Shown one piece after another: positions 141-36,042 of a stretch of DNA of 43,647 nucleotides. The notes beneath the pieces are model-generated. The model worked only from the letters and a program-made list of their open reading frames with translations, did not search any database and was not told where the DNA came from. Within the stretch, counting starts at the first letter, position 1. Each line of letters begins with the position of its first letter. Source of the stretch: an uncultured Candidatus Saccharibacteria bacterium (lineage in GTDB: Bacteria; Patescibacteriota; Minisyncoccia; UBA6257; GWB1-50-10); the NCBI GenBank assembly GCA_964639325.1, contig CAZXDO010000024.1:1-43647 (forward strand), given 5' to 3'. A program made the translations under genes and the position numbers.

Positions 141-410
141 TGGCTCCGGGGGCCGGATTCGAACCGGCAACCTTCTCCTTACATGTAACCCTCCTGTTAC
201 CAAGAGGCATGGACTATCTCATCACCATATTCTAGAAAGAACTTAGGTGCCGGGCGCTATAAGTCTCTGCACCTTCCCCAATAAAATCAGGGCTTGGCTC
301 AGGATTGCCCCAGTAGGGTTTCCCTGAATTCACCCGGTGTTTCAACCGTGATTTCTCACAGAAGCTGCCGTTTAGGACAGGGAGTCGCACTACCATTGTG
401 CTACCCCGGA
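141..410 (-). tRNA. tRNA-Asn(GUU) interrupted by a group I intron (exon 1 = 377-410, exon 2 = 141-181)
   Basis: The joined exons give a 75-nt cloverleaf. Acceptor TCCGGGG/CCCCGGA (U1-A72), G73, encoded CCA. D arm GCAC-AATGGTA-GTGC. Anticodon loop CUGUUAA. T arm GCCGG-TTCGAAT-CCGGC. Confidence 0.8.
182..376 (-). ncRNA. Group I (IC3-like) intron, 195 nt, no ORF
   Basis: Core strings match those I recall from the cyanobacterial tRNA-Leu intron: UCAGGGAAACC, GGCAAUCCUGAGCCAAGCC, GGAAGGUGCAGAGACU, AGUCCA. P1 has a U.G wobble at the 5' splice site. P2 is CUGUGA-GAAA-UCACGG. The terminal base is G. Confidence 0.8.
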
Positions 411-420
411 ATGCGAGGAG

Positions 421-446
421 ATAAATAGAAATTAATTTCTATTTAT
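421..446. repeat. 26-bp perfect AT-rich palindrome just upstream of tRNA-Asn
   Basis: ataaatagaaatt / aatttctatttat are exact reverse complements. Function unknown (operator or terminator). Confidence 0.6.
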
Positions 447-656: not shown

Positions 657-731
657 CCCCCCATAGCTCAATTTGGCAGAGCAGCTCCCTTTTAAGGAGA
701 AGGTTTCTAGGTTCGAGGCCTAGTGGGGGGA
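657..731 (+). tRNA. tRNA-Lys(UUU), CCA not encoded
   Basis: Acceptor CCCCCCA/TGGGGGG. U8, D arm GCTC-AATTTGGCA-GAGC. Anticodon loop CTTTTAA. T arm CTAGG-TTCGAGG-CCTAG. Discriminator A. The variable loop is 6 nt and there is a 27:43 mismatch. Confidence 0.8.
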
Positions 732-733
732 CA

Positions 734-1597
734 ATGAATAAAACTCCCGAATATCTCATACAAAAATGCCGCTCTTTAAGAAGGAAAAGTATTCCTTTGA
801 AAAAGATAATGGAAGAAACGGGACTACCTAAAACCACTGTCTATGGATATATATACGACATTCCCCGATCTCCCCATTTTGAAAGAAAAATAATAAAAGA
901 ATCAACAGAAAGAATAATAAAATTCAATAAATCCAGGAAAGGTAAAAGCGCTTTAAACCGCCACCCTATTGAATTTAATGAATGGAACCCACAGCTTGTT
1001 ATGCTTGTGGGTCATTTTATTTTTGATGGAGAAATAAAGAAAAATGGTTGCATCTACAATAATAGAAGCAAAAAATTAATAAGAAGGGTAAAAAAATTAA
1101 CAAAGTATGTATATAAATACCCTCCCAAAGAAATGATAAATGAAAAATCAGGAGTTATTACAATATCATACTTTAATGTAGAGCTTTCTAAGCTAATTAA
1201 CCAAAGATCAAAAGAATTGATAGAATACATAAAATCAGCACCAAAAGAACACAAACGAATTTTCTTAAAATCTTTTTTCGACGATGAAGGGTGTATCAGT
1301 TTTTACAATAATACGAATAGAAAGGTTAAGGGCTATCAGTATAAAATTGAAATATTAAAACTAATTCAAAGCCTCCTTCTAGATTTTAAAATCAAAAGCA
1401 CTATTGAAAATCAACAAAGAGAAATAGTAATAAGAAGAAAAGAAAATTTAAAGAAGTTTCAAAAAGAGATAAATTTCTCCAAAGGTATTTATATGAACCC
1501 AAACCGGAAAAACAGCGTTTGGAAAAGAAAATTGGAAAAAAGAGAAATATTAAAAAACGCCATTAATTCATATCAAAACCTCAACCGGACATATTGA
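734..1597 (+). CDS. Free-standing LAGLIDADG homing endonuclease (two motifs) with N-terminal helix-turn-helix
   Basis: Motif 1 is LVMLVGHFIFDGEI and motif 2 is IFLKSFFDDEGCI. The N-terminus has an HTH-like segment, IPLKKIMEETGLPKTTVYGYI. TGA stop, followed by a terminator hairpin. Confidence 0.8.
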   Translation: MNKTPEYLIQKCRSLRRKSIPLKKIMEETGLPKTTVYGYIYDIPRSPHFERKIIKESTERIIKFNKSRKGKSALNRHPIEFNEWNPQLVMLVGHFIFDGEIKKNGCIYNNRSKKLIRRVKKLTKYVYKYPPKEMINEKSGVITISYFNVELSKLINQRSKELIEYIKSAPKEHKRIFLKSFFDDEGCISFYNNTNRKVKGYQYKIEILKLIQSLLLDFKIKSTIENQQREIVIRRKENLKKFQKEINFSKGIYMNPNRKNSVWKRKLEKREILKNAINSYQNLNRTY

Positions 1598-4864: not shown

Positions 4865-6352
4865 CTATTTCTTTTTCTTTTTTCTAAGAAAAGTAGGAAC
4901 ATCCCAAGGACTGGACTTGGAATCATCATTACCTTCCTCGTCCAAATCTCTTTCACTTCCCCAACTACCACCTGATGAAGAATTAGAAAAAGGATTTTCT
5001 TCTTCTTCTACACCACTTTCATCATCTGAATCCTTATCAACTTTCAAGGAGTTAATTTCAAAATTGCTTTTTCTTTTCTCGTCACGGCTAAAAAGGTGGG
5101 GCATATTAAAAGAGTTGCTATCTCTTAATGCTCCGTTAAAACCGGTAGCGATTACCGTTAATTTTATTGCTTTGTCTTTCAAACTATTGTCATTTATTGC
5201 CCCAAAGATGACTTGAGCGTTAGGATCCAAACTATCTGATATTACTTTGGCAATGTCATTAACTTCTGACATTTTAAGATCTCTGCCTCCGGCAATAGAA
5301 AACAAAACACCCTTAGCTCCTTCAATTGATGTTTCAAGAAGCGGTGAGTTAACTGCTTGTTGAATAACTTTTGTACTCCTATCTTGTCCTCTTGCCAAAC
5401 CTACCCCAATCATACTTGTCCCCATATCTTTCAAAATAGTTCTGATATCTGAAAAATCAACATTAATAATTCCAGGTACGTTGATAAGATCGGCAATTGC
5501 CCCAACACCGTCTTTTAGGACGTCATCAACATAAGCAAAAGCCTTAAGAATAGAAGTGTCTTTATCAATTACAGAGAAAACTCTGTCGTTAGGAATAATT
5601 ACCAAGGCGTCAACATTTTCTCTTATCCTGTCAATTGCTTCTTGGGCAATCATCATTCTTTTTGATCCTTCAAATTTAAAAGGGCGAGTAATAATACCTA
5701 TAGTCAAAACCCCGGCTTCTTTAGCTATCTCAGCAATAACCGGAGCAGCTCCGCTTCCGGTTCCACCGCCAAAACCAGCTGCTACAAAAACAATATCAGC
5801 TCCTTTAATAATTTCTCCTATCTCAGAACGATTTTCTTCAACAGCTTGGCGGCCAATATCAGGATTCATCCCTGCTCCCATACCTTTAGTAAGAGCTCGG
5901 CCTATATGAATTTTTTTGTGGGCTGAAACTTCTTCAAGGTCCTGCATATCAGTATTTACTGCAATATATTCCACTCCCCTTATCCGATTACTGTTTCTCA
6001 TTCGGCTAATTATATTACCCCCGGCTCCGCCTACTCCAATAACTTTAATATTAGTAATTCCCTGATTACTCTTTGATCTTGGACGCCTGCTCTTTGAACT
6101 TTTTCCCGCAGAAACTCTACGCTTTTTCGTACCCTTTTTCCCGGTACTTGGTTTTTTTCTTTTACTGTTTGAAGTTTTCTTAACTTTCTTATCAACCGTT
6201 TCTTTTACGTTCTTGGTTTTCTTGCTATTTTCTTTCTTTTCTTTGTCTTTTTTGTTTTTTTCTTTCTCGTGAACTGCCATATGAGCTTTAAGGTTATAAA
6301 AAAGTTTATGACACACAGGACAACGTTCTCTTTTTTTCTTGGTTTTTGGCAT
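4865..6352 (-). CDS. ftsZ: Cell division GTPase FtsZ with an approximately 100-aa N-terminal zinc-finger/basic extension
   Basis: IKVIGVGGAGGN, the GGGTGSGAAPVIA tubulin signature, and the C-terminal DVPTFLRKK peptide. The N-terminus carries CPVCHKLFYNLKAHMAVH and a K/R/S-rich tail. Confidence 0.9.
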   Translation of the reverse strand: MPKTKKKRERCPVCHKLFYNLKAHMAVHEKEKNKKDKEKKENSKKTKNVKETVDKKVKKTSNSKRKKPSTGKKGTKKRRVSAGKSSKSRRPRSKSNQGITNIKVIGVGGAGGNIISRMRNSNRIRGVEYIAVNTDMQDLEEVSAHKKIHIGRALTKGMGAGMNPDIGRQAVEENRSEIGEIIKGADIVFVAAGFGGGTGSGAAPVIAEIAKEAGVLTIGIITRPFKFEGSKRMMIAQEAIDRIRENVDALVIIPNDRVFSVIDKDTSILKAFAYVDDVLKDGVGAIADLINVPGIINVDFSDIRTILKDMGTSMIGVGLARGQDRSTKVIQQAVNSPLLETSIEGAKGVLFSIAGGRDLKMSEVNDIAKVISDSLDPNAQVIFGAINDNSLKDKAIKLTVIATGFNGALRDSNSFNMPHLFSRDEKRKSNFEINSLKVDKDSDDESGVEEEENPFSNSSSGGSWGSERDLDEEGNDDSKSSPWDVPTFLRKKKKK

Positions 6353-6410: not shown

Positions 6411-7637
6411 TTATGGCATTAAATTTTTTAAAAACTTTTTAACAACTTCCACCGGCCCTGAAGGCTGGATTACTTCTTCATTTCCCCAAATAAGCAAACC
6501 GACTGCTGTAGAAAATTCCGGGTCTTCAATAAGATCCTTGTGAGTAGGATTAATTGCTTCAAGACCGTCAACTTGAGGATAACCTATCTGAACCGGCAAT
6601 TTCAATTCTCTTTTTATTAATTCATCCATACCGGCAATCTTAACCCCGCCTCCGCATATCACTGCTCCGGCAGGTAATTGAACTGAACCGGTAGCTTCCT
6701 TTAACTCATCGTTAACTAATTCTAAAATTTCTTCTAAACGAATTTCAATTATTTCTGAAATAAATTTGCTTGAAACCTCAGTATTATCTTTAACCGAAAC
6801 ATCAATTTCAGAAAGATCTATCTTTTCCTTCCTGGAAACATCCTTTGATATAGCATAGCCGTAAGTCTTTTTAATTTTTTCAGCTAGATCAATTGAAACT
6901 TTAAGGCCCATGGCAATGTCATTGGTAACGTGACCGGACCCCACGGGCAAACTTTTTGAATGAACCACTTTCCCCTCTTCATAAACAACCAAAGAGGTGG
7001 TACCGCCGCCAAAATCTATTAAAACTGTTCCTAATTCTTTTTGTCTTTTAGAAAGAACTGCCCGACCAGACGCCAAAGGTGAAAAAATTATTCCAGACAC
7101 ATCCCCGCCTGTCTTCTTTAAAAGTTCAACAAGCTTTTTTATATGAGGATGAAAAGCTTGAATAAGCATAGTTGAAACTTCAAGGCGGCTGCCTTTCATT
7201 CCAACAGGGTCGGTAATTTCTCCTACGTCATCTACTAAATATTCAGAAACAACATTATGAAGAATAGTGTAATTTCCTTGGCTGAATTTGATTGCCTCTG
7301 AGGCTTGAAAAACTCTATCAACATCATCTTGCTGAATTTCTTGATCAGCTCTTGAAACTGCTACAATCCCCCTGCTCAACCTGGGAATAATGTGCTTTCC
7401 ATTAATGTTAATAAAGATATTTTCAGTAGCCTTCTTAGAAACTTTTTCCAAGTCAACCATTACCTTACGAAAAACTTTTAAGGCCTCTTCTTCGTCAACT
7501 AAAACCCCTTTCCTTAAACCGGCCGAAGGGTGTGAAAAAACGGAAATAACGGAAAGAGTTCCGTCCTTTTTTTTGTCCGCAACCACTCCTTTAATAGAAG
7601 AGGTTCCGATATCTAGTCCTGTGATAATATTTGCCAT
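6411..7637 (-). CDS. ftsA: Cell division protein FtsA
   Basis: GLDIGTSSIKGVV and DFGGGTTS actin-fold motifs. It lies directly upstream of ftsZ. Confidence 0.9.
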   Translation of the reverse strand: MANIITGLDIGTSSIKGVVADKKKDGTLSVISVFSHPSAGLRKGVLVDEEEALKVFRKVMVDLEKVSKKATENIFININGKHIIPRLSRGIVAVSRADQEIQQDDVDRVFQASEAIKFSQGNYTILHNVVSEYLVDDVGEITDPVGMKGSRLEVSTMLIQAFHPHIKKLVELLKKTGGDVSGIIFSPLASGRAVLSKRQKELGTVLIDFGGGTTSLVVYEEGKVVHSKSLPVGSGHVTNDIAMGLKVSIDLAEKIKKTYGYAISKDVSRKEKIDLSEIDVSVKDNTEVSSKFISEIIEIRLEEILELVNDELKEATGSVQLPAGAVICGGGVKIAGMDELIKRELKLPVQIGYPQVDGLEAINPTHKDLIEDPEFSTAVGLLIWGNEEVIQPSGPVEVVKKFLKNLMP

Positions 7638-8705: not shown

Positions 8706-10055
8706 TCAACAATGACTCCTCTTTTTTATCTTTTTTAATCTTGATTTAATCTTCTCCACCATATCCTCCAAAGGAACAGTTTCCTGAATACCTGTATCAA
8801 GCTCTCTCATAACAGCCGTACCCTCAAAAACTTCTTTTTGTCCGTATATCAAAACTAGGCCCACTCCGCTTTTTTCAGCCGCTTTCATTTGCGACTTAAA
8901 AGTTTTTCTACCCAAACATTCAACAACCACTACGCCTTTTTTTCTAAACTTATGAATAATTTCTAAACTAGAATTTTTAGCCGCTTCCCCTACGGCCACA
9001 AAAAACAATTCATCCTTTTTTCCCTTTTCTTCCTTTGTTTTTATATTAGTTTTCAATAAATAATCAATGAGGTTGTCCAAATAAATTTCTCCGCTGACCG
9101 AAGGAAGCTGTCTTCCCCCAATTCTTTCTGCTAAATAATCTTGGCGCCCCCCTGAAGCAATTGGTATTTCCAAATTCTCATCAGGGTAAACCTCAAAAAC
9201 AAATTTGTTGTAATAATTTTTATTCCCAAACAAATAAGGATCTGAAACATAATCCACACCATTATCTTCAATAAGGGCAAGAACCTTTTGAAAATGGCTG
9301 TTACAATTTTGGCAAAGATGATCCAAAATATTAGGAGCATTATCACGCACATCAAGACATTTATCTCTCCAACATCTAAAAACTGTTACGGGGTCTTGCT
9401 CGCAACGCTCTCTACACTCACCACAAATCTTATTCTTGTTAAAATCACAGTAATTTTTAAGCTTTTCTTGAAAACCGGGACGGCAAACTCGGCAGCCAAC
9501 GGTGTTAACCTTTAAAACAGGGTTGGTTATCTTCAAATCATTTAACAAATCTAAAATAGCTAAAACTACTTGAGCATCATAAACCGGATCATTGTCCCCT
9601 ATTATTTGAAAACCCCATTCACGGAATTGGCATTTTTCTCCCCTGCCGTTTTTTCTAAAAACCGGACCAGAATAATATGCCTTCAAAGGGAGAGAAAAAT
9701 AACCAAGCTGGTTCTCTAAATAACTCCTCATAACAGAAACACTGCCTTCCGGCCTTAAAACCATTTTTGTCCTTGTACCTGATTTAAAGGTAAAAAGCTT
9801 TTTTTCAGAAAAATCAAAATCTCTTTCCAGTGCCCTTTCAAACAACTCGGCTCTTTCTACTACCGGCGTTTCAACATAATGAAAATGGTGAAATTTAGCT
9901 ATTTTATTTCCAACATCCCAAACTGTCCTCCATAAATCTGTATTTTTTGGAGAAACATCAGCCATACCTTCCACCCCCTTAATCCCCTTAAACCTCTTGT
10001 CTCCATTTTTCTTGGGTTTCTTATTGGTGTTAAATTTTTTAGAGGATTTGGCCAT
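8706..10055 (-). CDS. hisS: Histidyl-tRNA synthetase (start moved to the ATG at 10055)
   Basis: LRPEGSVSVMRSY, YYSGPVFRK..QFREWGFQIIG, and a Cys-rich insertion domain. It has a short K-rich N-terminal extension. Confidence 0.85.
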   Translation of the reverse strand: MAKSSKKFNTNKKPKKNGDKRFKGIKGVEGMADVSPKNTDLWRTVWDVGNKIAKFHHFHYVETPVVERAELFERALERDFDFSEKKLFTFKSGTRTKMVLRPEGSVSVMRSYLENQLGYFSLPLKAYYSGPVFRKNGRGEKCQFREWGFQIIGDNDPVYDAQVVLAILDLLNDLKITNPVLKVNTVGCRVCRPGFQEKLKNYCDFNKNKICGECRERCEQDPVTVFRCWRDKCLDVRDNAPNILDHLCQNCNSHFQKVLALIEDNGVDYVSDPYLFGNKNYYNKFVFEVYPDENLEIPIASGGRQDYLAERIGGRQLPSVSGEIYLDNLIDYLLKTNIKTKEEKGKKDELFFVAVGEAAKNSSLEIIHKFRKKGVVVVECLGRKTFKSQMKAAEKSGVGLVLIYGQKEVFEGTAVMRELDTGIQETVPLEDMVEKIKSRLKKIKKRSHC

Positions 10056-10114
10056 ATGTATAAATAGATAGTTAATAAAACTCGGAGCAACAGAAACTAA
10101 AAACAAGTTACAAA

Positions 10115-22323: not shown

Positions 22324-25300
22324 ATGAACAAATTTACTCACTTACACGTACACTCCCATTACTCCATGTTAGATGGGCTGTCAAAAATTGAAGATATTGT
22401 TAAAAAAACTAAAGAACATGGAATGAAAGCCGTGGCCTTAACCGACCACGGTAACCTCTATGGTGCTATCGAATTTTATAAAAAAGCAAAAGCGGAAAAC
22501 ATCAAGCCAATTATGGGTCTTGAAGCGTATTACGCTCCGGAAAGCCGGAAAAAAAAGGATAAAACAAGTAGAAACCGCTACCACCTCACTCTTTTGGCAA
22601 AAAACAATACCGGCTGGAAAAACCTTCTTCAACTAGTTACCATATCAAACCTTGAAGGCTTTTATTACAAACCCCGCATTGACGACGAACTCCTTGAAAA
22701 ATATCACGAAGGGTTAATCTGTCTTTCCGGATGTATTTCCGGAGAAATTCCTTCTCTTGTTAAAAAGGAAAAAAAAGAAAAAGCAGAAAAAAGAGCAAAA
22801 TGGTTTAAATCCTTGTTCGGTGACGATTATTACATAGAACTCCAGAAAAACTATTCCGAACTTCATGAGGAATTGAAAAAACTTGCCAAGAAAATAGGTA
22901 GTAAAGTAGTGGCTACACAAGATTCCCATTACATTAATAAAGAAGATAAAGACGCCCACGAAATTCTTCTTGCCGTCCAAACAAAAAATGTAATTGAAAG
23001 TGATGATAGAATGTCCCTAAAAGATTTTGACCTTCATTTTGCCTCTACTGAAGAAATGACTGAATATTTCAAAGACACTCCGGAAGCAATAAAAACAACA
23101 GAAGAAATTGTTGATAAATGTAATGTTGAAATAAAACTTGGAGAAAACAAAATTCCTAAATTTGAAACACCAAATGGAGAAACTACCCAAGAATATCTTA
23201 CCAAACTAGCCAAAGAAGGGCTTTCTAAAAGATATGAAAAAGTTACTCCGGAGATTAAAGATCGCCTTAAAGCTGAGCTGGAAGTTATTAAAAAAACCGG
23301 CTTCGCCGATTACTTCTTAATCGTCCAAGATTTTGTCCAATGGGCTAAAAAAAGAGACATTGTGGTCGGTCCGGGAAGGGGTTCGGCTGCCGGAAGTTTA
23401 GTTTCTTACTCTATCGGCATTACCAATATTGACCCACTAAAATACGACCTCCTTTTTGAAAGATTTTTAAACCCTGAAAGGGTTCAAGTTCCCGATATTG
23501 ATATTGATTTTACTGATACAAGACGCGATGAAGTTATTGCTTACGTCCGTGAAAAATACGGCCAAAAAAACGTAGCTCAAATCATTACCTTTGGAACTAT
23601 GGCTGCTAGAGCTGCTATTCGTGATACCGGACGGGCCCTGGGATATTCATACGGATTTTGTGACAGAGTAGCCAAACTTATCCCCTTCCAAACAAACATC
23701 AAAGAAGCTCTTGATTCGGTTGATGAGCTTAAAGAAATGTACGAAACCGAAGAACAAGTTAAAAAATTAATTGACTCGGCCCTAAAACTGGAAGGAGTTG
23801 TCCGCCATGCTTCAGTTCATGCCTGCGGAGTAGTAATTTCTCCTAAACCCCTTCCCAACTATGTTCCTCTCCAAAAAGCTCCCCAAGGAGAAGACGCTAT
23901 TATTACCCAATTTGAAATGCATAGCGTGGAAGATCTCGGTATCCTTAAAATGGACTTTTTAGGACTCAAAAACCTCACTATTATAGAAGAAACTCTCCAA
24001 AGCATAAAAGAACAGCACAACAAAGAGATAGATATCAATAAAATACCTCTGGACGACAGAAAGACTTATCGACTCCTTCAAAAAGGTTTAACCGTAGGTG
24101 TTTTTCAGTTGGAAGGCCAAGGTATGCAACGTTATCTCAAAAAACTTCTCCCTTCTGAATTTGAAGACATTATCGCCATGGTTTCCCTTTATCGTCCCGG
24201 ACCCATGGAACTTATCCCTCACTACATAAAAAGGAAGTTTGGTGAAGAAAATGTTACTTTTCTTCATCCTAAACTTGAACCAATTCTCTCCCCTACTTAT
24301 GGCATAGGAATTTACCAAGAACAAATGATGAGAATAGCCCGAAACCTGGCCGGATATTCTCTTGGAGAGGCCGATGTTCTTCGAAAAGCGATTGGTAAAA
24401 AAATAAAATCACTCCTTGATAAGCAAAAAGTAAAACTTATAGAAGGAATGATAAAAAACGGCATTGAAGAAAAAACCGCTAAAAAAATATGGGACCTCTT
24501 TCCTCCCTTCGCCCGTTATGGTTTTAACAGATGTTTAACAGGGGATACTAAAATATACAACCCGGAAACCGGCAGTTTGGATGAAATAAAGGAAATCCAC
24601 CGGAAAGGAAAAGGGACGGTAGCCTCCATAAAAGAAAACTTTAAACTCGCAAAATACCCTGCTACCAAAACCTACTACAACGGAAAAAAGAAAGTTTGGA
24701 AAATAACTACCAAAAGTGGAAGAGAGATAACCGCTACCCCCAACCACCCCTTCTATACCGAAAGCGGCTGGCAAAATCTTGAAAACATAAAGGAAGGCGA
24801 TCGCCTTGCCGTCCCCCGCACACTTCCCGAACCAAAAAAGACAAAACCGGTAAAAAAACACAAACTTGCTCTTCTCGGCTACCTTATAGCAGAAGGGAAT
24901 CTCTGTCACCCCCACGGATTTTACTTCTACTCCAAAGAGGAAAACGAAATAAAGGACTATATTAAAAACCTGGAGAAATTCAAAAACACTGTTGGAAGAA
25001 TAGACCGAAGCAAATCCGCTGCCTCAGTCTACTCTAAAAGAAAGAATGTAAAAGAAAAATCGGAAGCCGTTGAATGGATTAATTCTCTGAGCATTAAAAA
25101 CAAAATTGCCATTGAAAAGAAATTCCCTGACTTTGTTTTTAACCTTTCCAACAAAGACCTTTCTATCTTAATCAGCAAAATGTTCCAAGGCGACGGATGC
25201 ATAAATAACAAGCGAGATCCTCAAATATTCTACGCCACCTCCTCAAAAAAACTGGCTAAAGAGCTCCAACACCTCCTTCTCCGTTTTAATATTCTCTCCA

Positions 25301-26757
25301 CTATCCACCAAAAAAATTTCAAATACCGGGAGGAGATAAAAAAAGGCTACACCGTAACCATCTCCCGCTACAACAACATTGAAAAGTTCATCAACGCCTT
25401 CAGTAAGCATTTCGTAGGCGAAAAGAAAAAAACATCCAAAAAAATCTTAAAAAAACATCCTATTATAAATAAAAAAATAAAAACCTGGTCCGCCAGAGGC
25501 AGTTTTGATACAATCCCTGTTTCCCTGGTCTTAAATGAAATCCGGGAGGTTGTAAAAACAAAAGCAGGTTCCTTTCGAAGTTTTTCAAATGAAACCGGCA
25601 TTTCCTGGCGCCTCTTTATGAAAGATAAAAAGAAAAAAGGATATCTAAGGGAAACTATCAACGAAATAGCGGAAAAAACCAGAAACGAAAATCTCTATAA
25701 TCACGCTCAATCAGACATCTATTGGGACAAAGTAGCAAAAATAGAATACGCAGGAGTCGAAGACACCTATGATCTTACTATCCCTAAAACCCACAACTTT
25801 GTAGCCAACGATATAATTTCCCACAACTCCCATGCCGCTTCCTACGCTACTATTGCCTACCAAACCGCTTACCTCAAAGCCCGCTACCCAATTGAGTTTA
25901 CCACTGCCCTCCTAAATGTTTCCGGTAATGATATTGAAAGAATAAGTTTTCTCATCGGTGAGTCGCGCCGCTTGGGCATTGAAGTTCTTCCTCCGGATAT
26001 AAACCAAAGCTATCGCAACTTTACCATAGACGAGGAAAATATCCGCTTTGGCCTTCTTGCCGTCAAAAACATCGGCGGAAATATTGCTGATGCAATAATA
26101 GCAAAAAGAAGAGAAGGAGGTCCCTACCAAAACATCTCTGACTTTCTTTCCCGCGTCCACCATCATGATTTAAACAAAAAATCACTAGAGAGTTTAATAA
26201 AATGCGGAGCCTTTGATAATTTTGAAAGCGACAGAGGAAAGCTCCTTGCCAATATAGAAGAAATGCTTAGATTTAAAGAAGCTGTCAGAAAAAAGATGGA
26301 TAGTAATCAAGGAGATCTTTTTGGTAAAAAATCATCAATTACTCTTAAACTTAAACCGGCTAGAGAAAAGGTTGATAAAAATAAAATTCTAGCTTGGGAA
26401 AAAGAACTTTTAGGTCTCTACCTTACCGACCACCCTTTTATTAAATACAAAAACAAACTTTCAAGCTGGGTAAAACCAATAGGAGAAATAACCCAAAATG
26501 GTGCCGGCGGAAGCAAGTATTATATAACGGCAGGACTTATTTCTTCCGTTAAAAAAATACTTACCAAAAACGGAAAACTTATGCTTTTTGTAAAACTTGA
26601 AGATGAAAAAGATTCTATCGAAATACTTGTTTTTAATAATACCTTTCAAGAAAACAGCAAAGTTTGGGAAGAAAATAAAATAGTCCTTGTAAAAGGAAAA
26701 TTATCAAGCCGAGATAACGACCCTAAACTTATCTGTAATCAAGTTAAGGAACTTTAA
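22324..26757 (+). CDS. dnaE: DNA polymerase III alpha subunit (DnaE) containing an intein
   Basis: PHP motif HLHVHSHYSMLDG, GPGRGSAAGS, PDIDIDF. The FARYGFNR / SHAASYA motif is split by 432 aa. Confidence 0.92.
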   Translation: MNKFTHLHVHSHYSMLDGLSKIEDIVKKTKEHGMKAVALTDHGNLYGAIEFYKKAKAENIKPIMGLEAYYAPESRKKKDKTSRNRYHLTLLAKNNTGWKNLLQLVTISNLEGFYYKPRIDDELLEKYHEGLICLSGCISGEIPSLVKKEKKEKAEKRAKWFKSLFGDDYYIELQKNYSELHEELKKLAKKIGSKVVATQDSHYINKEDKDAHEILLAVQTKNVIESDDRMSLKDFDLHFASTEEMTEYFKDTPEAIKTTEEIVDKCNVEIKLGENKIPKFETPNGETTQEYLTKLAKEGLSKRYEKVTPEIKDRLKAELEVIKKTGFADYFLIVQDFVQWAKKRDIVVGPGRGSAAGSLVSYSIGITNIDPLKYDLLFERFLNPERVQVPDIDIDFTDTRRDEVIAYVREKYGQKNVAQIITFGTMAARAAIRDTGRALGYSYGFCDRVAKLIPFQTNIKEALDSVDELKEMYETEEQVKKLIDSALKLEGVVRHASVHACGVVISPKPLPNYVPLQKAPQGEDAIITQFEMHSVEDLGILKMDFLGLKNLTIIEETLQSIKEQHNKEIDINKIPLDDRKTYRLLQKGLTVGVFQLEGQGMQRYLKKLLPSEFEDIIAMVSLYRPGPMELIPHYIKRKFGEENVTFLHPKLEPILSPTYGIGIYQEQMMRIARNLAGYSLGEADVLRKAIGKKIKSLLDKQKVKLIEGMIKNGIEEKTAKKIWDLFPPFARYGFNRCLTGDTKIYNPETGSLDEIKEIHRKGKGTVASIKENFKLAKYPATKTYYNGKKKVWKITTKSGREITATPNHPFYTESGWQNLENIKEGDRLAVPRTLPEPKKTKPVKKHKLALLGYLIAEGNLCHPHGFYFYSKEENEIKDYIKNLEKFKNTVGRIDRSKSAASVYSKRKNVKEKSEAVEWINSLSIKNKIAIEKKFPDFVFNLSNKDLSILISKMFQGDGCINNKRDPQIFYATSSKKLAKELQHLLLRFNILSTIHQKNFKYREEIKKGYTVTISRYNNIEKFINAFSKHFVGEKKKTSKKILKKHPIINKKIKTWSARGSFDTIPVSLVLNEIREVVKTKAGSFRSFSNETGISWRLFMKDKKKKGYLRETINEIAEKTRNENLYNHAQSDIYWDKVAKIEYAGVEDTYDLTIPKTHNFVANDIISHNSHAASYATIAYQTAYLKARYPIEFTTALLNVSGNDIERISFLIGESRRLGIEVLPPDINQSYRNFTIDEENIRFGLLAVKNIGGNIADAIIAKRREGGPYQNISDFLSRVHHHDLNKKSLESLIKCGAFDNFESDRGKLLANIEEMLRFKEAVRKKMDSNQGDLFGKKSSITLKLKPAREKVDKNKILAWEKELLGLYLTDHPFIKYKNKLSSWVKPIGEITQNGAGGSKYYITAGLISSVKKILTKNGKLMLFVKLEDEKDSIEILVFNNTFQENSKVWEENKIVLVKGKLSSRDNDPKLICNQVKEL
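24532..25827 (+). mobile_element. DnaE intein (432 aa) with a LAGLIDADG homing endonuclease domain
   Basis: Starts CLTGDTKIY. Block B is TATPNHPFY. LAGLIDADG motifs LALLGYLIAEGN and LISKMFQGDGCI. Ends THNFVANDIISHN, followed by +1 Ser. Confidence 0.9.
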
Positions 26758-32612: not shown

Positions 32613-35600
32613 TTATATATCCAAATTTTTAACTCCTTTAGCGTGAGCTTGAATAAATTTCTTTCTTGGAGCCACCTCTTCTCCCATTAATACATCAAAA
32701 AGGTTGTCTGCTTCAGCAGCGTCTTTAACTGTTACCCTTTTCAAAACTCTATTTTCCGGATTCATGGTAGTTGCCCAAAGACGATCAGGATTCATCTCTC
32801 CAAGACCTTTGTATCTTTGAACATTAACATTTTTTCCCATTTCTTTAACTAACTTATCGTACTCAGCATTATTATACGCATATTCCACCTTTTTACCCTT
32901 ATTTAATTGATAAAGTGGGGGTTGAGCAATGTAAAGATAACCTTGTTCAATGATTTCCCTGAAATAACGATAGAAAAGAGTTAAAAGAAGGGTTCTAATA
33001 TGAGCTCCATCTACATCGGCGTCAGTCATAATTATGACTTTATGGTACCTAAGCTTAGAAACATCAAATTCTTCTCCTATAGCCGTACCAAGGGCTATAA
33101 TCAAAGCTCTTATTTCTTTATTTTTTAACATTCTATCGATTCTCGCTTTTTCCACATTTAATATTTTACCCCGAAGAGGCAATATTGCCTGTGTTTTCTT
33201 ATCTCTCCCTCCCTTGGCACTATTATGAACAAATACTCCAGACGATAAGGCAAAGTTATGAGTTTTTTCTACCTCTAAATCGTAAACATCTATTTTCTCA
33301 TGTATTCTTTTGATTCCGACAACTCTATGGTTGTAATTTACAACAGCCTCTTTCATCTTTCTGTCATTGTTTCCAAAAAACCTATTTCTTATGGTTTCAT
33401 ACCTAATCAAACTCTTATCATTAGATTCTCTTCTTAATCTATTATATTCTCCTATATCAATCTTCTTTTTCTCAAGATAAATATCATGAAGAACTTTCAA
33501 AGCTTTATTCATATAGGTAAGGTTGTAAGCTTCTTTCCTTTTCTTTCTAAAGTCAGAAGTCCATTGATCTTTTGTTTTTTTTGATCGCCAGTTTCTAAGT
33601 TGCGAATCACCCCACTGTTTTTTTGCTATTTTAGATAACTCTTCTATTTTATCAGGATTATTTTTAAAATACTCCGAAACTCTTTTTGATTGCTTGTTTC
33701 TATTTTTTAAATCTGACCAATATCTTTTTTGTTCCTTGTATAATCTACTTTCAGATTCTTTTCTATATTTTTCGTTAGAATAATAAAATTCCAAAAACTT
33801 TTTCACCATATAATTCTTATACTCAACACTCTCCCACTGTTTTTTTGCCCTCTTACTTAATATCTTTTTCATTTCAGGGGTAGTCATCACTTTTCTAATT
33901 TTCTCTCTAAATTCCAATGTCTTCCTTATTTCCCTAAGCTTTTTCCTAACATCAGGCCTGTTCAAAGTCATCTTAGCCATCTCACGATGAAGGTTTATAT
34001 GCTCATCCTTATTCATTCTAACCAAATTATCAGGATTATTATTTAACTTATTAAAGTCCTTATGGTGTACATGAGAATTAACTATCTTTTTATAAACACC
34101 ATTATCTAAGTTACACTTATCACTCAAAAGGTGGGTAAATATCCATTTGTTTATCTTGGAATCAAAAACCATTTCATAACCTTCTATTGTTATTCCTCCT
34201 CCTTTTTCAGAAAGTTTTTTTCTAAAAGGCATAAGAGAATCATTTTTGGTTAGAGTTTCAGCTTTTTTATAACTACCATCTCTAAGCATAAATAAGTGGT
34301 CGGGAGTACATTTAATCTTCTTTCCGTTATCAAGCGTCACTTCCACCACTTCCACATTTTTCTTAGTTACTCTAGGGTTTTTTATAGGAGCTATTCCTAT
34401 ATTTCCGTTTTCTTTTATCGTATAACAATAATTTTTCTTATTATTCCTTGCTTCTTTAAATAAATCTTTAAAACTAACATTCCGGCCATCGACAAGGGCT
34501 ACTTCAGTATCACCAGAAAAACATCCACCGGCGCTGTCGCCCTCCACTATGAAAAGCTCTGATTCTTCTGGTTTTCTAGAAATACAATCAGCTAATTTTC
34601 CGGGAAGGGATAATCCCTCAAGAGCTCCTTTCCTTAAAACAGTATCTTTAGCTGCTTTAGCCGCCTTTCTAGCCTTAGCCGCCAAAAGATTTTTTTCCAA
34701 AATTCTCTTAGCATCATTTGAGTATCTCTCCAAAAATTCGCTTAAAGCTTCATTAACCACGGTTTCTACCGCACTTCTTGCTTCCGGGTTACCTAACCTA
34801 GCTTTGGTTTGCCCTTCAAACTGAGGTTCGTGGGGAGCACTTAACTTTACCGAAACAGCAGCTACTATTCCCTCCCTGACATCCTCTCCCGTCAAATTAC
34901 TATCAGAATCCTTCAAAAAACCTTCCTTTCTGGCATAATCGTTAAGGGTTCTAGTAAGGGCAGAACGAAAACCGGTAAGGTGCATACCTCCATCTGCGGT
35001 ATAAATATTATTAGCAAACGTGTGCTCTTCACTTTCAACATCATCGGTATAGGAAAAAGTCGCTTCAATATCAACACTATTTTCCTCTTTATGAATATAA
35101 AAGGGATGGTCATGAATAGGGTTGGAATTTCCAATTAAGTAAGTGAGATAAGATTTTAACCCTCCTTCAAAATAAAAAGCATAAGAATTATCCTTCTCGC
35201 CTCTCTTGTCTAAAATATCAATTCGTAAACCTTTAGTTAAATAAGCCTGCTGTCTCAAATGGTTTACGATAAGATTAAAATTAAAACTGCCGCCGCCTGT
35301 AAAAATTTCTGGATCCGGTTTAAAAGAAACAGTAGTACCATTTCTCTCACATTTCCCTTGTTTTTTAACGTTGCTTTTTGGCTTGCCTCTTTCATATTCT
35401 TGCACGTACCTATTTCCCTCTAAGCAAACCTCAGCTTTCAACCATAAAGAAAGAGCATTTACAACAGAAACACCCACTCCGTGTAATCCTCCGGATACTT
35501 TATAAGACTCACCGCCAAATTTACCTCCGGCGTGGAGGGTGGTCATTACTGTTTCTAAAGCAGATTTTCCGCTTTGTTTATGTTTTTCTACCGGAATCCC

Positions 35601-35855
35601 CCGACCATCATCAGTTACTCTCACTTCATTATCAGGCAAAAGCTCAACTAAAATATTTGTAGCATAGCCCGCCATTGCTTCGTCTATAGAGTTGTCAATA
35701 ACCTCCCAAATAAGATGATGAAGACCATCTGGGCCGGTCGATCCGATATACATTCCCGGCCTTTTTCTTACAGGATCAAGGCCCTCGAGTATGTAAATAT
35801 CTTCTGCTCCATAATCAGATTTTTTAACATTTTTCTTGTTTTTTTTATCTGCCAT
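32613..35855 (-). CDS. gyrB: DNA gyrase subunit B containing an intein
   Basis: GLHHLIWEVIDNSIDE, and the Toprim motif EGDSAGG / SAKGGRD split by 434 aa. PLRGKILNVE. The ATG at 35855 is preferred over the TTG at 35864. Confidence 0.92.
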   Translation of the reverse strand: MADKKNKKNVKKSDYGAEDIYILEGLDPVRKRPGMYIGSTGPDGLHHLIWEVIDNSIDEAMAGYATNILVELLPDNEVRVTDDGRGIPVEKHKQSGKSALETVMTTLHAGGKFGGESYKVSGGLHGVGVSVVNALSLWLKAEVCLEGNRYVQEYERGKPKSNVKKQGKCERNGTTVSFKPDPEIFTGGGSFNFNLIVNHLRQQAYLTKGLRIDILDKRGEKDNSYAFYFEGGLKSYLTYLIGNSNPIHDHPFYIHKEENSVDIEATFSYTDDVESEEHTFANNIYTADGGMHLTGFRSALTRTLNDYARKEGFLKDSDSNLTGEDVREGIVAAVSVKLSAPHEPQFEGQTKARLGNPEARSAVETVVNEALSEFLERYSNDAKRILEKNLLAAKARKAAKAAKDTVLRKGALEGLSLPGKLADCISRKPEESELFIVEGDSAGGCFSGDTEVALVDGRNVSFKDLFKEARNNKKNYCYTIKENGNIGIAPIKNPRVTKKNVEVVEVTLDNGKKIKCTPDHLFMLRDGSYKKAETLTKNDSLMPFRKKLSEKGGGITIEGYEMVFDSKINKWIFTHLLSDKCNLDNGVYKKIVNSHVHHKDFNKLNNNPDNLVRMNKDEHINLHREMAKMTLNRPDVRKKLREIRKTLEFREKIRKVMTTPEMKKILSKRAKKQWESVEYKNYMVKKFLEFYYSNEKYRKESESRLYKEQKRYWSDLKNRNKQSKRVSEYFKNNPDKIEELSKIAKKQWGDSQLRNWRSKKTKDQWTSDFRKKRKEAYNLTYMNKALKVLHDIYLEKKKIDIGEYNRLRRESNDKSLIRYETIRNRFFGNNDRKMKEAVVNYNHRVVGIKRIHEKIDVYDLEVEKTHNFALSSGVFVHNSAKGGRDKKTQAILPLRGKILNVEKARIDRMLKNKEIRALIIALGTAIGEEFDVSKLRYHKVIIMTDADVDGAHIRTLLLTLFYRYFREIIEQGYLYIAQPPLYQLNKGKKVEYAYNNAEYDKLVKEMGKNVNVQRYKGLGEMNPDRLWATTMNPENRVLKRVTVKDAAEADNLFDVLMGEEVAPRKKFIQAHAKGVKNLDI
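33222..34523 (-). mobile_element. GyrB intein (434 aa) with an HNH endonuclease domain and basic tandem repeats
   Basis: Starts CFSGDTEVALVDG. Block B is KCTPDHLFM. HNH motif HVHHKDFNKLNNNPDNLVRMNKDEHINLH. Ends THNFALSSGVFVHN, followed by +1 Ser. Confidence 0.9.
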
Positions 35856-36042
35856 ATTTATCAAAATTCTAATTTTGTTAGGAATTTAAGCCAATTATAA
35901 AACCCTTTTCAAGGGCTTTAGCATACTCTAATAATACCAAAAAATACTGCTAAAAACAACTTCCAAAAACACGTCTTTTTTAGGTAACTAGACATATTTA
36001 AATTATTAAGTTAATATGACAAAACTAACCTAAAACAAATCT

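What the first reader, a model, noticed from the sequence alone, without database searches (positions are those of the whole stretch)
6056..6352. FtsZ with an N-terminal Ros/MucR-like C2H2 zinc finger and an approximately 70-aa basic tail
The FtsZ core starts near residue 100 (IKVIGVGGAGGN). Upstream, in the same frame, residues 11-28 read CPVCHKLFYNLKAHMAVH. This gives a C-x2-C-x9-H-x3-H spacing with F, L and K at the positions I recall from the prokaryotic Ros/MucR finger (CLECGxSFKSLKRHLTTHH). About 70 residues of K/R/S-rich sequence follow. The only ATG, GTG or TTG codons upstream of the essential first beta-strand are M1 and M25, so an extension of at least 75 aa is unavoidable. FtsZ normally has only a short N-terminal peptide. 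By inference, a DNA-binding finger plus polycationic linker could tether the Z-ring protein to the nucleoid, perhaps standing in for Noc/SlmA/MatP-type coordination.
Basis: partly seen in the sequence, partly recalled or inferred. Interest (0 to 1): 0.68.

Follow-up and report, generated by a model that had tools for sequence, protein, structure and literature searches.

The report
FtsZ with N-terminal mini zinc finger
The cell-division protein FtsZ of this ultra-small (Patescibacteria) bacterium starts with a conserved single zinc finger and a long positively charged tail, and related genomes put the same module on the main sigma factor and on a DNA methyltransferase, so it probably links the division ring to DNA.

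Summary
The ftsZ ORF (4865..6352, minus strand, 495 aa) starts with MPKTKKKRER. A C-x2-C-x9-H-x3-H motif follows (residues 11-28), then about 70 K/R/S-rich residues. Residues 1-101 carry a net charge of +31. The FtsZ core begins at I102.

The finger is real. Orthologous, syntenic FtsZ loci conserve it, with synonymous codon changes. AlphaFold2 models a beta-beta-alpha finger at pLDDT about 95, followed by a disordered linker.

It is not a Ros/MucR family member. Only the roughly 18-residue finger aligns with Ros, ungapped and with the zinc ligands in register. The 58-aa Ros domain is absent and Pfam scores fall below cut-off. It is a short-spacer C2H2 finger flanked by basic segments, like GAGA factor.

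Two points change the picture:
- The polybasic N-tail is clade-wide: 111 of 118 close FtsZ homologues have one, and 109 of 117 RpoD homologues do too.
- The finger is a portable N-terminal module. A pattern scan of 185,579 genomes gave six hits, all in Patescibacteria: FtsZ, RpoD and a C5 DNA methyltransferase.

The nearest sister FtsZ has lost the finger and starts at the Met25 equivalent.

Best reading: a nucleic-acid-affinity tag on the filament face opposite the membrane tether. DNA binding and its cellular role are untested.

The parts
4865..6352 (-). ftsZ ORF, 495 aa including all extensions; stop codon at 4865..4867
   Evidence: Pfam Tubulin 158.9 bits (residues 101-262) and FtsZ_C 103.1 bits (311-405).
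6323..6352 (-). Polybasic leader, residues 1-10 (MPKTKKKRER), net charge +5
   Evidence: Every finger-bearing FtsZ and RpoD has an equivalent MAKKK..RKR leader.
6269..6322 (-). Short-spacer C2H2 zinc finger, residues 11-28 (CPVCHKLFYNLKAHMAVH); predicted beta-hairpin plus helix
   Evidence: Pattern found once in the window and in 0 of 100 shuffles. Conserved in orthologues with synonymous changes. AF2 pLDDT is 91/89 for the peptide alone and 95-96 in the full-length model. Top fold matches are beta-beta-alpha zinc fingers.
6278..6280 (-). Met25 ATG inside the finger; a possible alternative start that would give a finger-less isoform
   Evidence: The start codon of the finger-less sister P0002 aligns to this ATG. 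One gene call (P0004) also began at this position although the finger is encoded upstream.
6194..6268 (-). K/E-rich segment, residues 29-53, predicted as a continuation of the finger helix; net charge +5
   Evidence: (helix 21-44 in the peptide model, 21-53 in the full-length model).
6056..6193 (-). Disordered K/R/S-rich linker, residues 54-99; net charge +19
   Evidence: (pLDDT below 50 for most of residues 50-81; block means 43-64 for residues 51-100).
5567..6052 (-). FtsZ GTPase domain, residues 101-262, with G-box GGGTGSG at residue 195
5138..5422 (-). FtsZ C-terminal domain, residues 311-405; the T7-loop motif NVDFSD (residue 297) lies just before it
4910..5137 (-). Acidic disordered C-terminal linker, residues 406-481; net charge about -11
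4868..4909 (-). Conserved C-terminal peptide (PWDVPTFLRKKKKK), the usual FtsA-binding tail
   Evidence: Conserved across homologues.
6411..7637 (-). ftsA, immediately upstream in the same orientation; the membrane tether partner
   Evidence: The order HisRS-HIT-S21-YbeY-FtsA-FtsZ-RNR is conserved in L036, L037/L038 and L039.

Best explanation
This is the canonical FtsZ of a Paceibacteria-like Patescibacterium. It has acquired a lineage-specific N-terminal nucleic-acid-affinity module.

The module has three parts:
- a 10-residue polybasic leader;
- one minimal beta-beta-alpha C2H2 zinc finger with the short C-x2-C-x9-H-x3-H spacing also seen in Ros;
- a roughly 70-residue lysine/arginine/serine-rich segment that starts as a helical continuation of the finger and becomes a disordered linker (net +31 over 101 residues).

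A single finger flanked by basic segments is the arrangement that lets GAGA factor bind DNA with only one finger. The FtsZ N-terminus leaves the protofilament on the face opposite the C-terminal FtsA/membrane tether. In an assembled ring the tail would therefore point into the cytoplasm of a very small cell, where it can contact the chromosome. It could concentrate or hold FtsZ filaments on DNA and so couple division to the nucleoid.

Shown here: the domain architecture, conservation, predicted fold, distribution, and the sharing of the module with RpoD and a DNA methyltransferase.

Inferred, not shown: zinc binding, DNA (or RNA) binding, and any effect on ring placement.
For: 1. The finger is translated and constrained.
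- It is conserved in FtsZ loci at roughly 53-74% protein identity (P0003, P0005/L003/L010/L039, L002, L004/L032/L034, L021, L014).
- Cys, His, Pro, Asn and Leu codons are kept through synonymous changes, while the tail itself cannot be aligned.
- Synteny is conserved.
- M1 has the same AT-rich, Shine-Dalgarno-less leader as the other genes in the window.

2. The fold is confidently predicted. AF2 gives pLDDT 95-96 for residues 11-30, with a hairpin at 9-10/17-18 and a helix from residue 21; most of residues 50-81 are below 50. The top 50 PDB fold matches are essentially all beta-beta-alpha zinc fingers, including GAGA factor 1yui.

3. Profile searches hit DNA-binding C2H2 fingers, and hit Ros with the zinc ligands in register.

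4. The module is portable and keeps DNA-related company.
- The pattern scan of GTDB genomes gave 6 hits, all in Patescibacteria: FtsZ three times, RpoD twice and a C5 DNA methyltransferase once. Two MAGs carry it on both FtsZ and RpoD.
- A metagenome scan added more FtsZ and RpoD examples.
- The RpoD and FtsZ copies are each more similar between MAGs than to each other within a MAG. The duplication is therefore old and both copies have been maintained.

5. Polybasic N-tails are selective rather than proteome-wide.
- 111 of 118 close FtsZ homologues and 109 of 117 RpoD homologues have one.
- Within the window only FtsZ and HisRS have one, plus a short leader on GyrB. Metabolic enzymes do not.

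6. Geometry. A membrane-targeting sequence placed at the N- or the C-terminus of FtsZ attaches opposite faces of the filament (PMC5979038).

7. GAGA factor binds DNA with a single finger plus N-terminal basic regions (PMC10465944).
Against: - There is no experimental evidence of zinc or nucleic-acid binding.
- Every database score for the finger is below the curated cut-off (13-19 bits).
- The short x9 spacer removes about one turn at the N-terminal end of the recognition helix, so any DNA binding is probably weakly specific or non-specific.
- The sister lineage P0002 lost the finger, and most relatives have only the tail. The finger is therefore dispensable for FtsZ function.
- Met25 could be used as a start and give a finger-less protein.
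- Holding FtsZ on DNA runs against the usual logic of nucleoid occlusion.
- Beta-beta-alpha fingers can also bind RNA or proteins; the top fold hit was the ubiquitin-binding UBZ of WRNIP1.
- Many of the other carriers of the finger are small proteins of unknown function.
Confidence: 0.5

Rival explanations
1. The tail acts on the polymer itself. The polycationic N-tail and finger mediate lateral association or condensation of FtsZ filaments, for example by pairing with the acidic C-terminal linker of neighbouring filaments or with another partner protein. Nucleic acid plays no part.
For: The same protein has a +31 N-tail and a -11 C-terminal linker, and the finger-bearing clade has the most acidic linkers (-11 to -13). 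From established knowledge, basic C-terminal variable regions of some FtsZ proteins promote bundling. Beta-beta-alpha fingers can be protein-binding; UBZ was the top fold hit.
Against: Across 115 homologues N-tail charge and linker charge do not correlate (Spearman -0.12, p = 0.22). The same tail and finger sit on RpoD and a DNA methyltransferase, which do not polymerise.
Confidence: 0.15
2. The tail is a second membrane anchor. The polybasic tail binds anionic phospholipids and supplements FtsA.
For: Polybasic stretches commonly bind acidic lipids (general knowledge). The tail is long enough to reach around the filament.
Against: FtsA is encoded next door and the FtsA-binding C-terminal peptide is intact. 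The N-terminus is on the filament face opposite the C-terminal tether. There is no amphipathic helix or hydrophobic residues in the tail. The cytoplasmic DNA-binding protein RpoD has the same kind of tail. This model does not explain the zinc finger.
Confidence: 0.08
3. The extension is largely neutral baggage. In an AT-rich genome without Shine-Dalgarno sequences, A-rich lysine codons accumulate at 5' ends, perhaps helping initiation. The finger cassette was copied from RpoD and is tolerated. Translation may often begin at Met25, so the finger may contribute little or nothing.
For: Tail length and sequence vary widely (10-101 aa). P0002 lost the finger by deleting the first 72 nt and now starts at the Met25 equivalent. 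A gene caller chose the internal Met for P0004. The genome lacks Shine-Dalgarno sequences and has AT-rich leaders.
Against: The finger's ligands and core residues are conserved with synonymous substitutions across orthologues at roughly 53-74% identity, and in parallel in RpoD. The reading frame is open from M1 in every finger-bearing locus. The basic character holds in 111 of 118 homologues, including arginine-rich versions. The tails are restricted to a few proteins.
Confidence: 0.17
4. The module binds RNA or ribosomes rather than DNA, for example to localise or co-regulate FtsZ with the translation machinery.
For: Lysine-rich disordered tails and some C2H2 fingers bind RNA. A tRNA-binding enzyme in the window, HisRS, also has a basic N-leader. 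There are weak zf-C2H2_jaz (dsRNA-binding finger) matches for 4 of 23 fingers.
Against: The identified carriers of the finger itself (RpoD, C5 DNA methyltransferase) act on DNA. HisRS has no finger.
Confidence: 0.1

Closest known systems
Canonical bacterial FtsZ (for example E. coli or B. subtilis FtsZ)
   Same: Tubulin/FtsZ GTPase domain, FtsZ_C domain, G-box GGGTGSG, T7-loop NVDFSD, disordered C-terminal linker, conserved C-terminal peptide (DVPTFLRK...), and a position downstream of ftsA.
   Different: There are 101 residues before the first beta-strand, against a median of 17 in diverse FtsZ proteins. These carry a zinc finger and a net charge of +31. None of 139 diverse FtsZ representatives has even a CxxC in its N-extension.
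Ros/MucR prokaryotic zinc finger (Pfam PF05443; PDB 2jsp)
   Same: Identical ligand spacing, C-x2-C-x9-H-x3-H, with the aromatic and Leu residues at the same positions. The profile aligns without gaps and the zinc ligands are in register (C82, H92, H96). Basic residues flank the finger.
   Different: Only about 18 residues align. The second helix, the 58-aa beta-beta-beta-alpha-alpha globular domain with its 15-residue hydrophobic core, and the N-terminal oligomerisation domain are all missing. Pfam scores are below cut-off. Here the finger sits at the extreme N-terminus of an unrelated protein.
Classical eukaryotic C2H2 finger (PF00096), especially the single-finger-plus-basic-regions DNA-binding domain of GAGA factor (PDB 1yui)
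   Same: Predicted beta-beta-alpha fold. Sequence signatures such as CPxCGKxF and NLxxH. One finger flanked by basic segments, the arrangement GAGA factor uses to bind DNA.
   Different: The spacer between the second Cys and the first His is 9 residues, not 12; every alignment to a classical finger needs a 3-residue gap. About one turn of the recognition helix is therefore missing. Scores are 13-16 bits against a cut-off of 25.2.
Noc, SlmA and MatP (factors that link the Z ring to the chromosome)
   Same: Only the proposed outcome: a physical link between DNA and FtsZ.
   Different: Those are separate DNA-binding proteins (ParB-like, TetR-like and ribbon-helix-helix respectively, from established knowledge) that act on FtsZ in trans. 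Here the putative DNA-binding element is fused to FtsZ in cis, and no homology was seen.
Zinc-finger-tagged RpoD of Paceibacteria-like MAGs (L001, L006, L029; P0124, P0138, P0140, P0143, P0152 and others)
   Same: The same polybasic leader plus x9 finger at the extreme N-terminus, followed by a K-rich linker. It is found in the same MAGs as finger-bearing FtsZ.
   Different: The recipient protein is the primary sigma factor. Some copies add, or have instead, a classical x12 finger (C-x2-C-GFEAxSExGLKRH-x3-QH).

Membership tests
FtsZ | Tubulin/FtsZ GTPase domain and FtsZ C-terminal domain above Pfam cut-offs | tested here: met
   PF00091 scores 158.9 bits (cut-off 33); PF12327 scores 103.1 bits (cut-off 27).
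FtsZ | G-box GGGTG(S/T)G and the T7-loop N-x-D-x-x-D | tested here: met
   GGGTGSG at residue 195; NVDFSD at residue 297.
FtsZ | Conserved C-terminal peptide for FtsA binding, and a position next to ftsA | tested here: met
   DVPTFLRKKKKK at the C-terminus. ftsA lies directly upstream and synteny is conserved.
Ros/MucR (PF05443) | C-x2-C-x9-H-x3/4-H ligand spacing | tested here: met
   Read directly from the sequence. The profile aligns to 2jsp without gaps and with ligands in register (numbering from PMC9779718).
Ros/MucR (PF05443) | Match to the family model at or above the gathering score | tested here: not met
   The window finger gives no hit at E<=10. Only 4 of 23 related fingers hit, best E = 0.0062, and in the one match shown in detail only model positions 63-85 of 123 are covered at 14.7 bits against a cut-off of 25.4.
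Ros/MucR (PF05443) | 58-aa beta-beta-beta-alpha-alpha globular domain with a second helix and a large hydrophobic core | tested here: not met
   AF2 gives a hairpin plus one helix that runs into K/E-rich sequence and then disorder. No hydrophobic segment follows His28. Definition.
Ros/MucR (PF05443) | N-terminal oligomerisation region preceding the finger | tested here: not met
   The finger starts at residue 11, after a polybasic leader.
Classical C2H2 zinc finger (PF00096 and relatives) | C-x2-4-C-x12-H-x3-5-H spacing | tested here: not met
   The spacer is 9 residues. All alignments to classical fingers need a 3-residue gap.
Classical C2H2 zinc finger (PF00096 and relatives) | Beta-beta-alpha fold around two Cys and two His | tested here: met
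   This rests on prediction only. AF2 pLDDT is 89-96 over residues 11-30. The top fold matches are beta-beta-alpha fingers, though none has a significant E-value because the domain is so small.
Classical C2H2 zinc finger (PF00096 and relatives) | Score at or above Pfam gathering thresholds | tested here: not met
   zf-C2H2 scores 13-16 bits against 25.2; zf-C2H2_4 scores about 14-15 bits against 27.
Any zinc finger | Zinc coordination and nucleic-acid binding | not testable with these tools
   This needs metal analysis and binding assays on the purified peptide.

The most novel reading that the evidence does not exclude
In one lineage of ultra-small Patescibacteria, a portable tag has been grafted onto both the division GTPase FtsZ and the primary sigma factor. 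The tag is a polybasic leader, a mini C2H2 finger and a polycationic linker, and it would confer DNA affinity. The Z ring would then be physically wired to the chromosome in cis. That would be a built-in nucleoid tether or occlusion device, replacing trans-acting factors such as Noc, SlmA and MatP, and a mode of coupling division to the chromosome not yet described.
Probability: 0.3. Interest if true: 0.8.

Novelty: new variant of a known kind. Interest (0 to 1): 0.62.

Why it matters
FtsZ is among the most studied bacterial proteins, and its N-terminus is usually treated as a short, unimportant peptide. Patescibacteria are mostly uncultured, have tiny cells, and are poorly understood with respect to division-site control.

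A cis-fused nucleic-acid-binding module on FtsZ, shared with RpoD and a DNA methyltransferase, gives a concrete hypothesis that a peptide experiment can test: that these cells coordinate the ring with the chromosome through this module.

The result also defines a short-spacer C2H2 finger that current Pfam models do not capture. It sits between the Ros type and the classical type, which bears on the debated origin of C2H2 fingers.

Finally, it shows that polybasic N-tails on FtsZ and RpoD are a clade-wide trait. I found no mention of this in the searched literature.

Tried and rejected
- Ros/MucR membership: rejected. Only the finger aligns, and the family model and domain are not met.
- Word-index protein search with a tandem-duplicated finger profile (the tool needs at least 40 aa) found only three small proteins (P0121-P0123). 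They share RKRCPVCNKLF but lack the second His. The search did not even recover P0003 or P0005, so it was uninformative.
- Charge compensation between the N-tail and the acidic C-terminal linker: no correlation across 115 homologues.
- PHROGs scan of the tail and of six small finger-bearing proteins: nothing meaningful. Pfam on their non-finger parts: nothing.
- An exhaustive representative search with the finger profile alone was not attempted, because multi-finger eukaryotic proteins would swamp the ranking. The single job went to full-length FtsZ to survey N-extensions instead.
- Other copies of the finger in the window: none.
- Literature searches for a zinc-finger FtsZ, for FtsZ N-terminal extensions in the candidate phyla radiation, and for nucleoid occlusion in Patescibacteria returned nothing relevant.
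- Mis-called start as a full explanation: rejected for the tail, because there is no start codon after Met25. It is unlikely for the finger because of its conservation, but a Met25 isoform cannot be excluded.
Full report
**What is in the sequence**

The finding lies in a 495-aa ORF on the minus strand (4865..6352). It sits directly downstream of ftsA (6411..7637) and upstream of a class II ribonucleotide reductase.

Pfam places the Tubulin/FtsZ GTPase domain at residues 101-262 (158.9 bits) and FtsZ_C at 311-405 (103.1 bits). The G-box GGGTGSG, the T7-loop motif NVDFSD and the C-terminal peptide DVPTFLRKKKKK are all present. This is therefore the canonical ftsZ.

Cys11, Cys14, His24 and His28 give C-x2-C-x9-H-x3-H (nt 6269..6322). 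The net charge of the 101 residues is +31, with 31 Lys and 8 Arg.

Nothing usable lies between M25 and the core. A stop lies 27 nt upstream of M1.

The window has 36% G+C. Its genes have AT-rich leaders without Shine-Dalgarno motifs, and M1 fits that pattern.

**Is the extension real and translated?**

The closest FtsZ homologues come from Patescibacteria (Paceibacteria, Jorgensenbacteria and similar labels). Their N-termini show two things.

First, almost all carry a K/R/S-rich tail before the conserved GITKIKV strand. Of 118 homologues, 111 have at least 20 residues with a net charge of +6 or more. The median is 32 residues and +11. The window's 101 residues are the longest.

Second, a subset has the finger: P0003 (CPECGKFYENLGAHMVVH) and P0005 (CPVCNKLYYNLGAHMVVH). 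Pattern scans added further FtsZ loci: L002, L004/L032/L034, L021 and L014.

The loci are orthologous. The order HisRS-HIT-S21-YbeY-FtsA-FtsZ(-RNR) recurs in L036, L037/L038 and L039.

In codon alignments the Cys, Pro, Asn, Leu, Ala-His-Met and His positions are retained through synonymous changes. The tail behind them cannot be aligned. That is the signature of a translated, constrained mini-domain.

In a quick neighbour-joining tree of the core, the finger-bearing FtsZ proteins form one clade. One finger-less member, P0002, is nested inside it as sister to the window protein. L014 falls elsewhere on a long branch, and this was not resolved.

The P0002 locus shows how the finger was lost. Its start ATG aligns with the window's Met25 (the Ala-His-Met-Ala stretch) and the 72 nt before it are gone. 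The finger is therefore dispensable in at least one lineage. Met25 is also a credible alternative start. One gene caller chose that position for P0004, although the finger is encoded upstream in L021.

**What kind of finger is it?**

No Pfam model reaches its cut-off. The classical C2H2 models give 13-19 bits. ROS_MUCR gives nothing for the window's finger at E<=10.

A three-sequence profile searched against PDB sequences hits classical DNA-binding fingers (Aart, ZBTB17, ZBTB24). Every such alignment needs a 3-residue gap, which reflects a spacer of 9 rather than 12.

A 23-sequence profile also finds Ros (2jsp; E = 0.013, 18.4 bits). That alignment has no gaps: profile positions 9-26 match chain positions 26-43. 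This puts Cys10, His20 and His24 of the profile on Ros C82, H92 and H96 (residue numbering from PMC9779718).

[quoted passage not shown] None of that exists here.

AlphaFold2 models residues 9-10 and 17-18 as a hairpin, with a helix starting at residue 21. For the isolated peptide, pLDDT is 91 and 89 over residues 11-30. In the full-length model, with a 50-sequence alignment, it is 95-96. The helix runs on through the K/E-rich stretch to about residue 53. The model then turns low-confidence until the core: pLDDT is below 50 for most of residues 50-81, and the ten-residue block means for residues 51-100 are 43-64.

Fold search gives no significant E-value, because the domain is tiny. Even so, the top 50 hits are essentially all beta-beta-alpha zinc fingers, including tramtrack, CTCF, ZBTB7A, SUPERMAN, GAGA factor and the WRNIP1 UBZ.

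My classification is a minimal, short-spacer C2H2 finger. It is Ros-like in spacing, classical-like in size and fold, and a member of neither curated family.

**The module is portable**

I scanned one genome from each of 185,579 species with the DNA pattern for C-P-x-C-x-K-x-[FY]-x-N-L-x2-H-x3-H. There were six hits. By my own estimate from base frequencies, fewer than one hit is expected by chance.

All six are in Patescibacteria MAGs. All six lie at the extreme N-terminus of an ORF, behind a MAKKK...RKR leader. The carriers are:
- FtsZ, three times;
- the primary sigma factor RpoD, twice (Pfam regions 1.1-4 were confirmed on the near-identical metagenome copy L029);
- a C5 cytosine DNA methyltransferase, once (260.8 bits).

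Two MAGs carry the finger on both FtsZ and RpoD.

The JGI metagenome scan gave 28 hits. They include more FtsZ and RpoD examples and a set of small proteins of unknown function that start with the finger. A few eukaryote-like multi-finger proteins contain an x9 finger among classical ones. One viral contig encodes a 113-aa ORF with two such fingers.

A survey of the 120 closest RpoD homologues mirrors the FtsZ picture. Of 117 with a recognisable region 1.1, 109 have a polybasic N-tail (median 46 residues, +20). Eight have the x9 finger. Eighteen have a classical x12 finger of the form C-x2-C-GFEAxSExGLKRH-x3-QH, and two have both.

The RpoD fingers of two MAGs are identical to each other, and the FtsZ fingers are nearly so. 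The paralogues within one MAG differ more than that. The duplication is therefore old, and each copy has been kept.

Basic N-leaders are not a proteome-wide habit. In the window only FtsZ and HisRS have one, plus a short one on GyrB. Metabolic enzymes do not.

Among 139 diverse FtsZ cluster representatives, none has even a CxxC in its N-extension.

**How it most likely works**

What is shown: FtsZ here consists of a leader, a finger, a helix, a disordered polycation, the GTPase core, an acidic linker and the FtsA-binding peptide. The finger is under constraint. The same tag decorates two DNA-acting proteins in the same lineage.

What follows from published work:
- A single C2H2 finger can bind DNA when flanked by basic regions, as in GAGA factor (PMC10465944, citing Omichinski et al. 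1997).
- A membrane anchor placed at the N-terminus of FtsZ attaches the face of the filament opposite to that used by a C-terminal anchor (PMC5979038).

What I infer: in a ring tethered by FtsA, the N-tail points inward and can contact the chromosome. It would act as a generic nucleic-acid-affinity tag that holds or concentrates FtsZ on DNA.

The short spacer removes roughly the first turn of the recognition helix. I therefore expect low sequence specificity, with binding dominated by backbone contacts from the conserved Lys after the second Cys and from the flanking lysines and arginines.

I put this at about 0.5. The stronger claim, that it replaces Noc/SlmA/MatP-type coordination, I put at about 0.3.

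**Rivals**

- Filament-filament or partner-protein interaction. The tail is +31 and the linker is -11, but there is no charge covariation across homologues, and RpoD has the same tag.
- A second membrane anchor. This is unlikely given the intact FtsA system, the opposite-face geometry and the absence of hydrophobic residues in the tail.
- Mostly neutral A-rich 5' extension, with a tolerated finger and possible Met25 initiation. Tail variability and the P0002 loss support this; the conservation of the finger argues against it.
- RNA rather than DNA as the ligand.

None of these is excluded without experiments.

**Novelty**

My full-text searches found no description of a zinc-finger FtsZ, of polybasic FtsZ or RpoD tails in Patescibacteria, or of this short-spacer finger family.

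This is a new variant of known kinds: FtsZ, and the C2H2 finger. It is not a new system. It does offer a cheap experimental test, with a peptide, zinc and DNA, of how ultra-small bacteria might couple division to the chromosome.

Noticed in passing
L001 5489-6814; L006; L029; proteins P0124-P0152: The primary sigma factor RpoD of Paceibacteria-like MAGs carries polybasic N-tails almost universally (109 of 117). In a sub-clade it also has one or two N-terminal C2H2 fingers ahead of region 1.1: the x9 type, a classical x12 type (C-x2-C-GFEAxSExGLKRH-x3-QH), or both.
   Followed up: partly
L005 1-945 (oriented coordinates), contig CAYNQG010000064.1: A C5 cytosine DNA methyltransferase (Pfam DNA_methylase, 260.8 bits) with the same x9 finger at its N-terminus. 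Its finger gives a weak ROS_MUCR match (14.7 bits).
   Followed up: partly
L008, L012, L015, L016, L022, L023, L026, L028, L013/L017/L024, L018, L031: Families of small proteins (46-269 aa) of unknown function begin with the same finger. Their remaining parts have no Pfam or PHROG match.
   Followed up: partly
L035 (IMG/VR contig), 113-aa ORF: A viral contig encodes a small protein with two tandem x9 fingers (CPVCGKKFRNLSAHLVYH and CPICDKKFRNLSAHIMRMH).
   Followed up: no
L007/L030, L009, L020, L027, L033: Eukaryote-like multi-finger proteins in metagenomes contain an x9 finger of the same consensus among classical x12 fingers. The short-spacer form is therefore not confined to prokaryotes.
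   Followed up: no
window 190-443 (-), 657-732 (+), 734-1597 (+): A group I intron (Rfam, 92.6 bits), a tRNA-Lys(UUU), and immediately after it an ORF whose translation looks like a LAGLIDADG homing endonuclease.
   Followed up: no
window 22324-26757 (+) and 32613-35864 (-): DnaE (1477 aa) and GyrB (1083 aa) are oversized. Their translations appear to contain inteins, with Cys...HN-Ser boundaries and endonuclease-like inserts. This was read from the translations only.
   Followed up: no
window 8706-10106 (-): HisRS has a basic N-terminal leader of about 27 aa (MAKSSKKFNTNKKPKKNGDKRFKGIKG). GyrB has a short one (MADKKNKKNVKK). Most other proteins in the window have none.
   Followed up: partly
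whole window: No Shine-Dalgarno motifs were seen upstream of about 27 genes. Starts are preceded by AT-rich leaders.
   Followed up: partly
P0004 versus L021: The public gene call P0004 starts at the internal Met of the finger (MKTHESG...), although the full finger and leader are encoded in frame upstream. Automated annotation may therefore under-report finger-bearing FtsZ proteins.
   Followed up: yes
P0121-P0123: Small proteins (53-68 aa) begin M..RKRCPVCNKLF...H but lack the second His at +4. They may be a degenerate or different finger.
   Followed up: no
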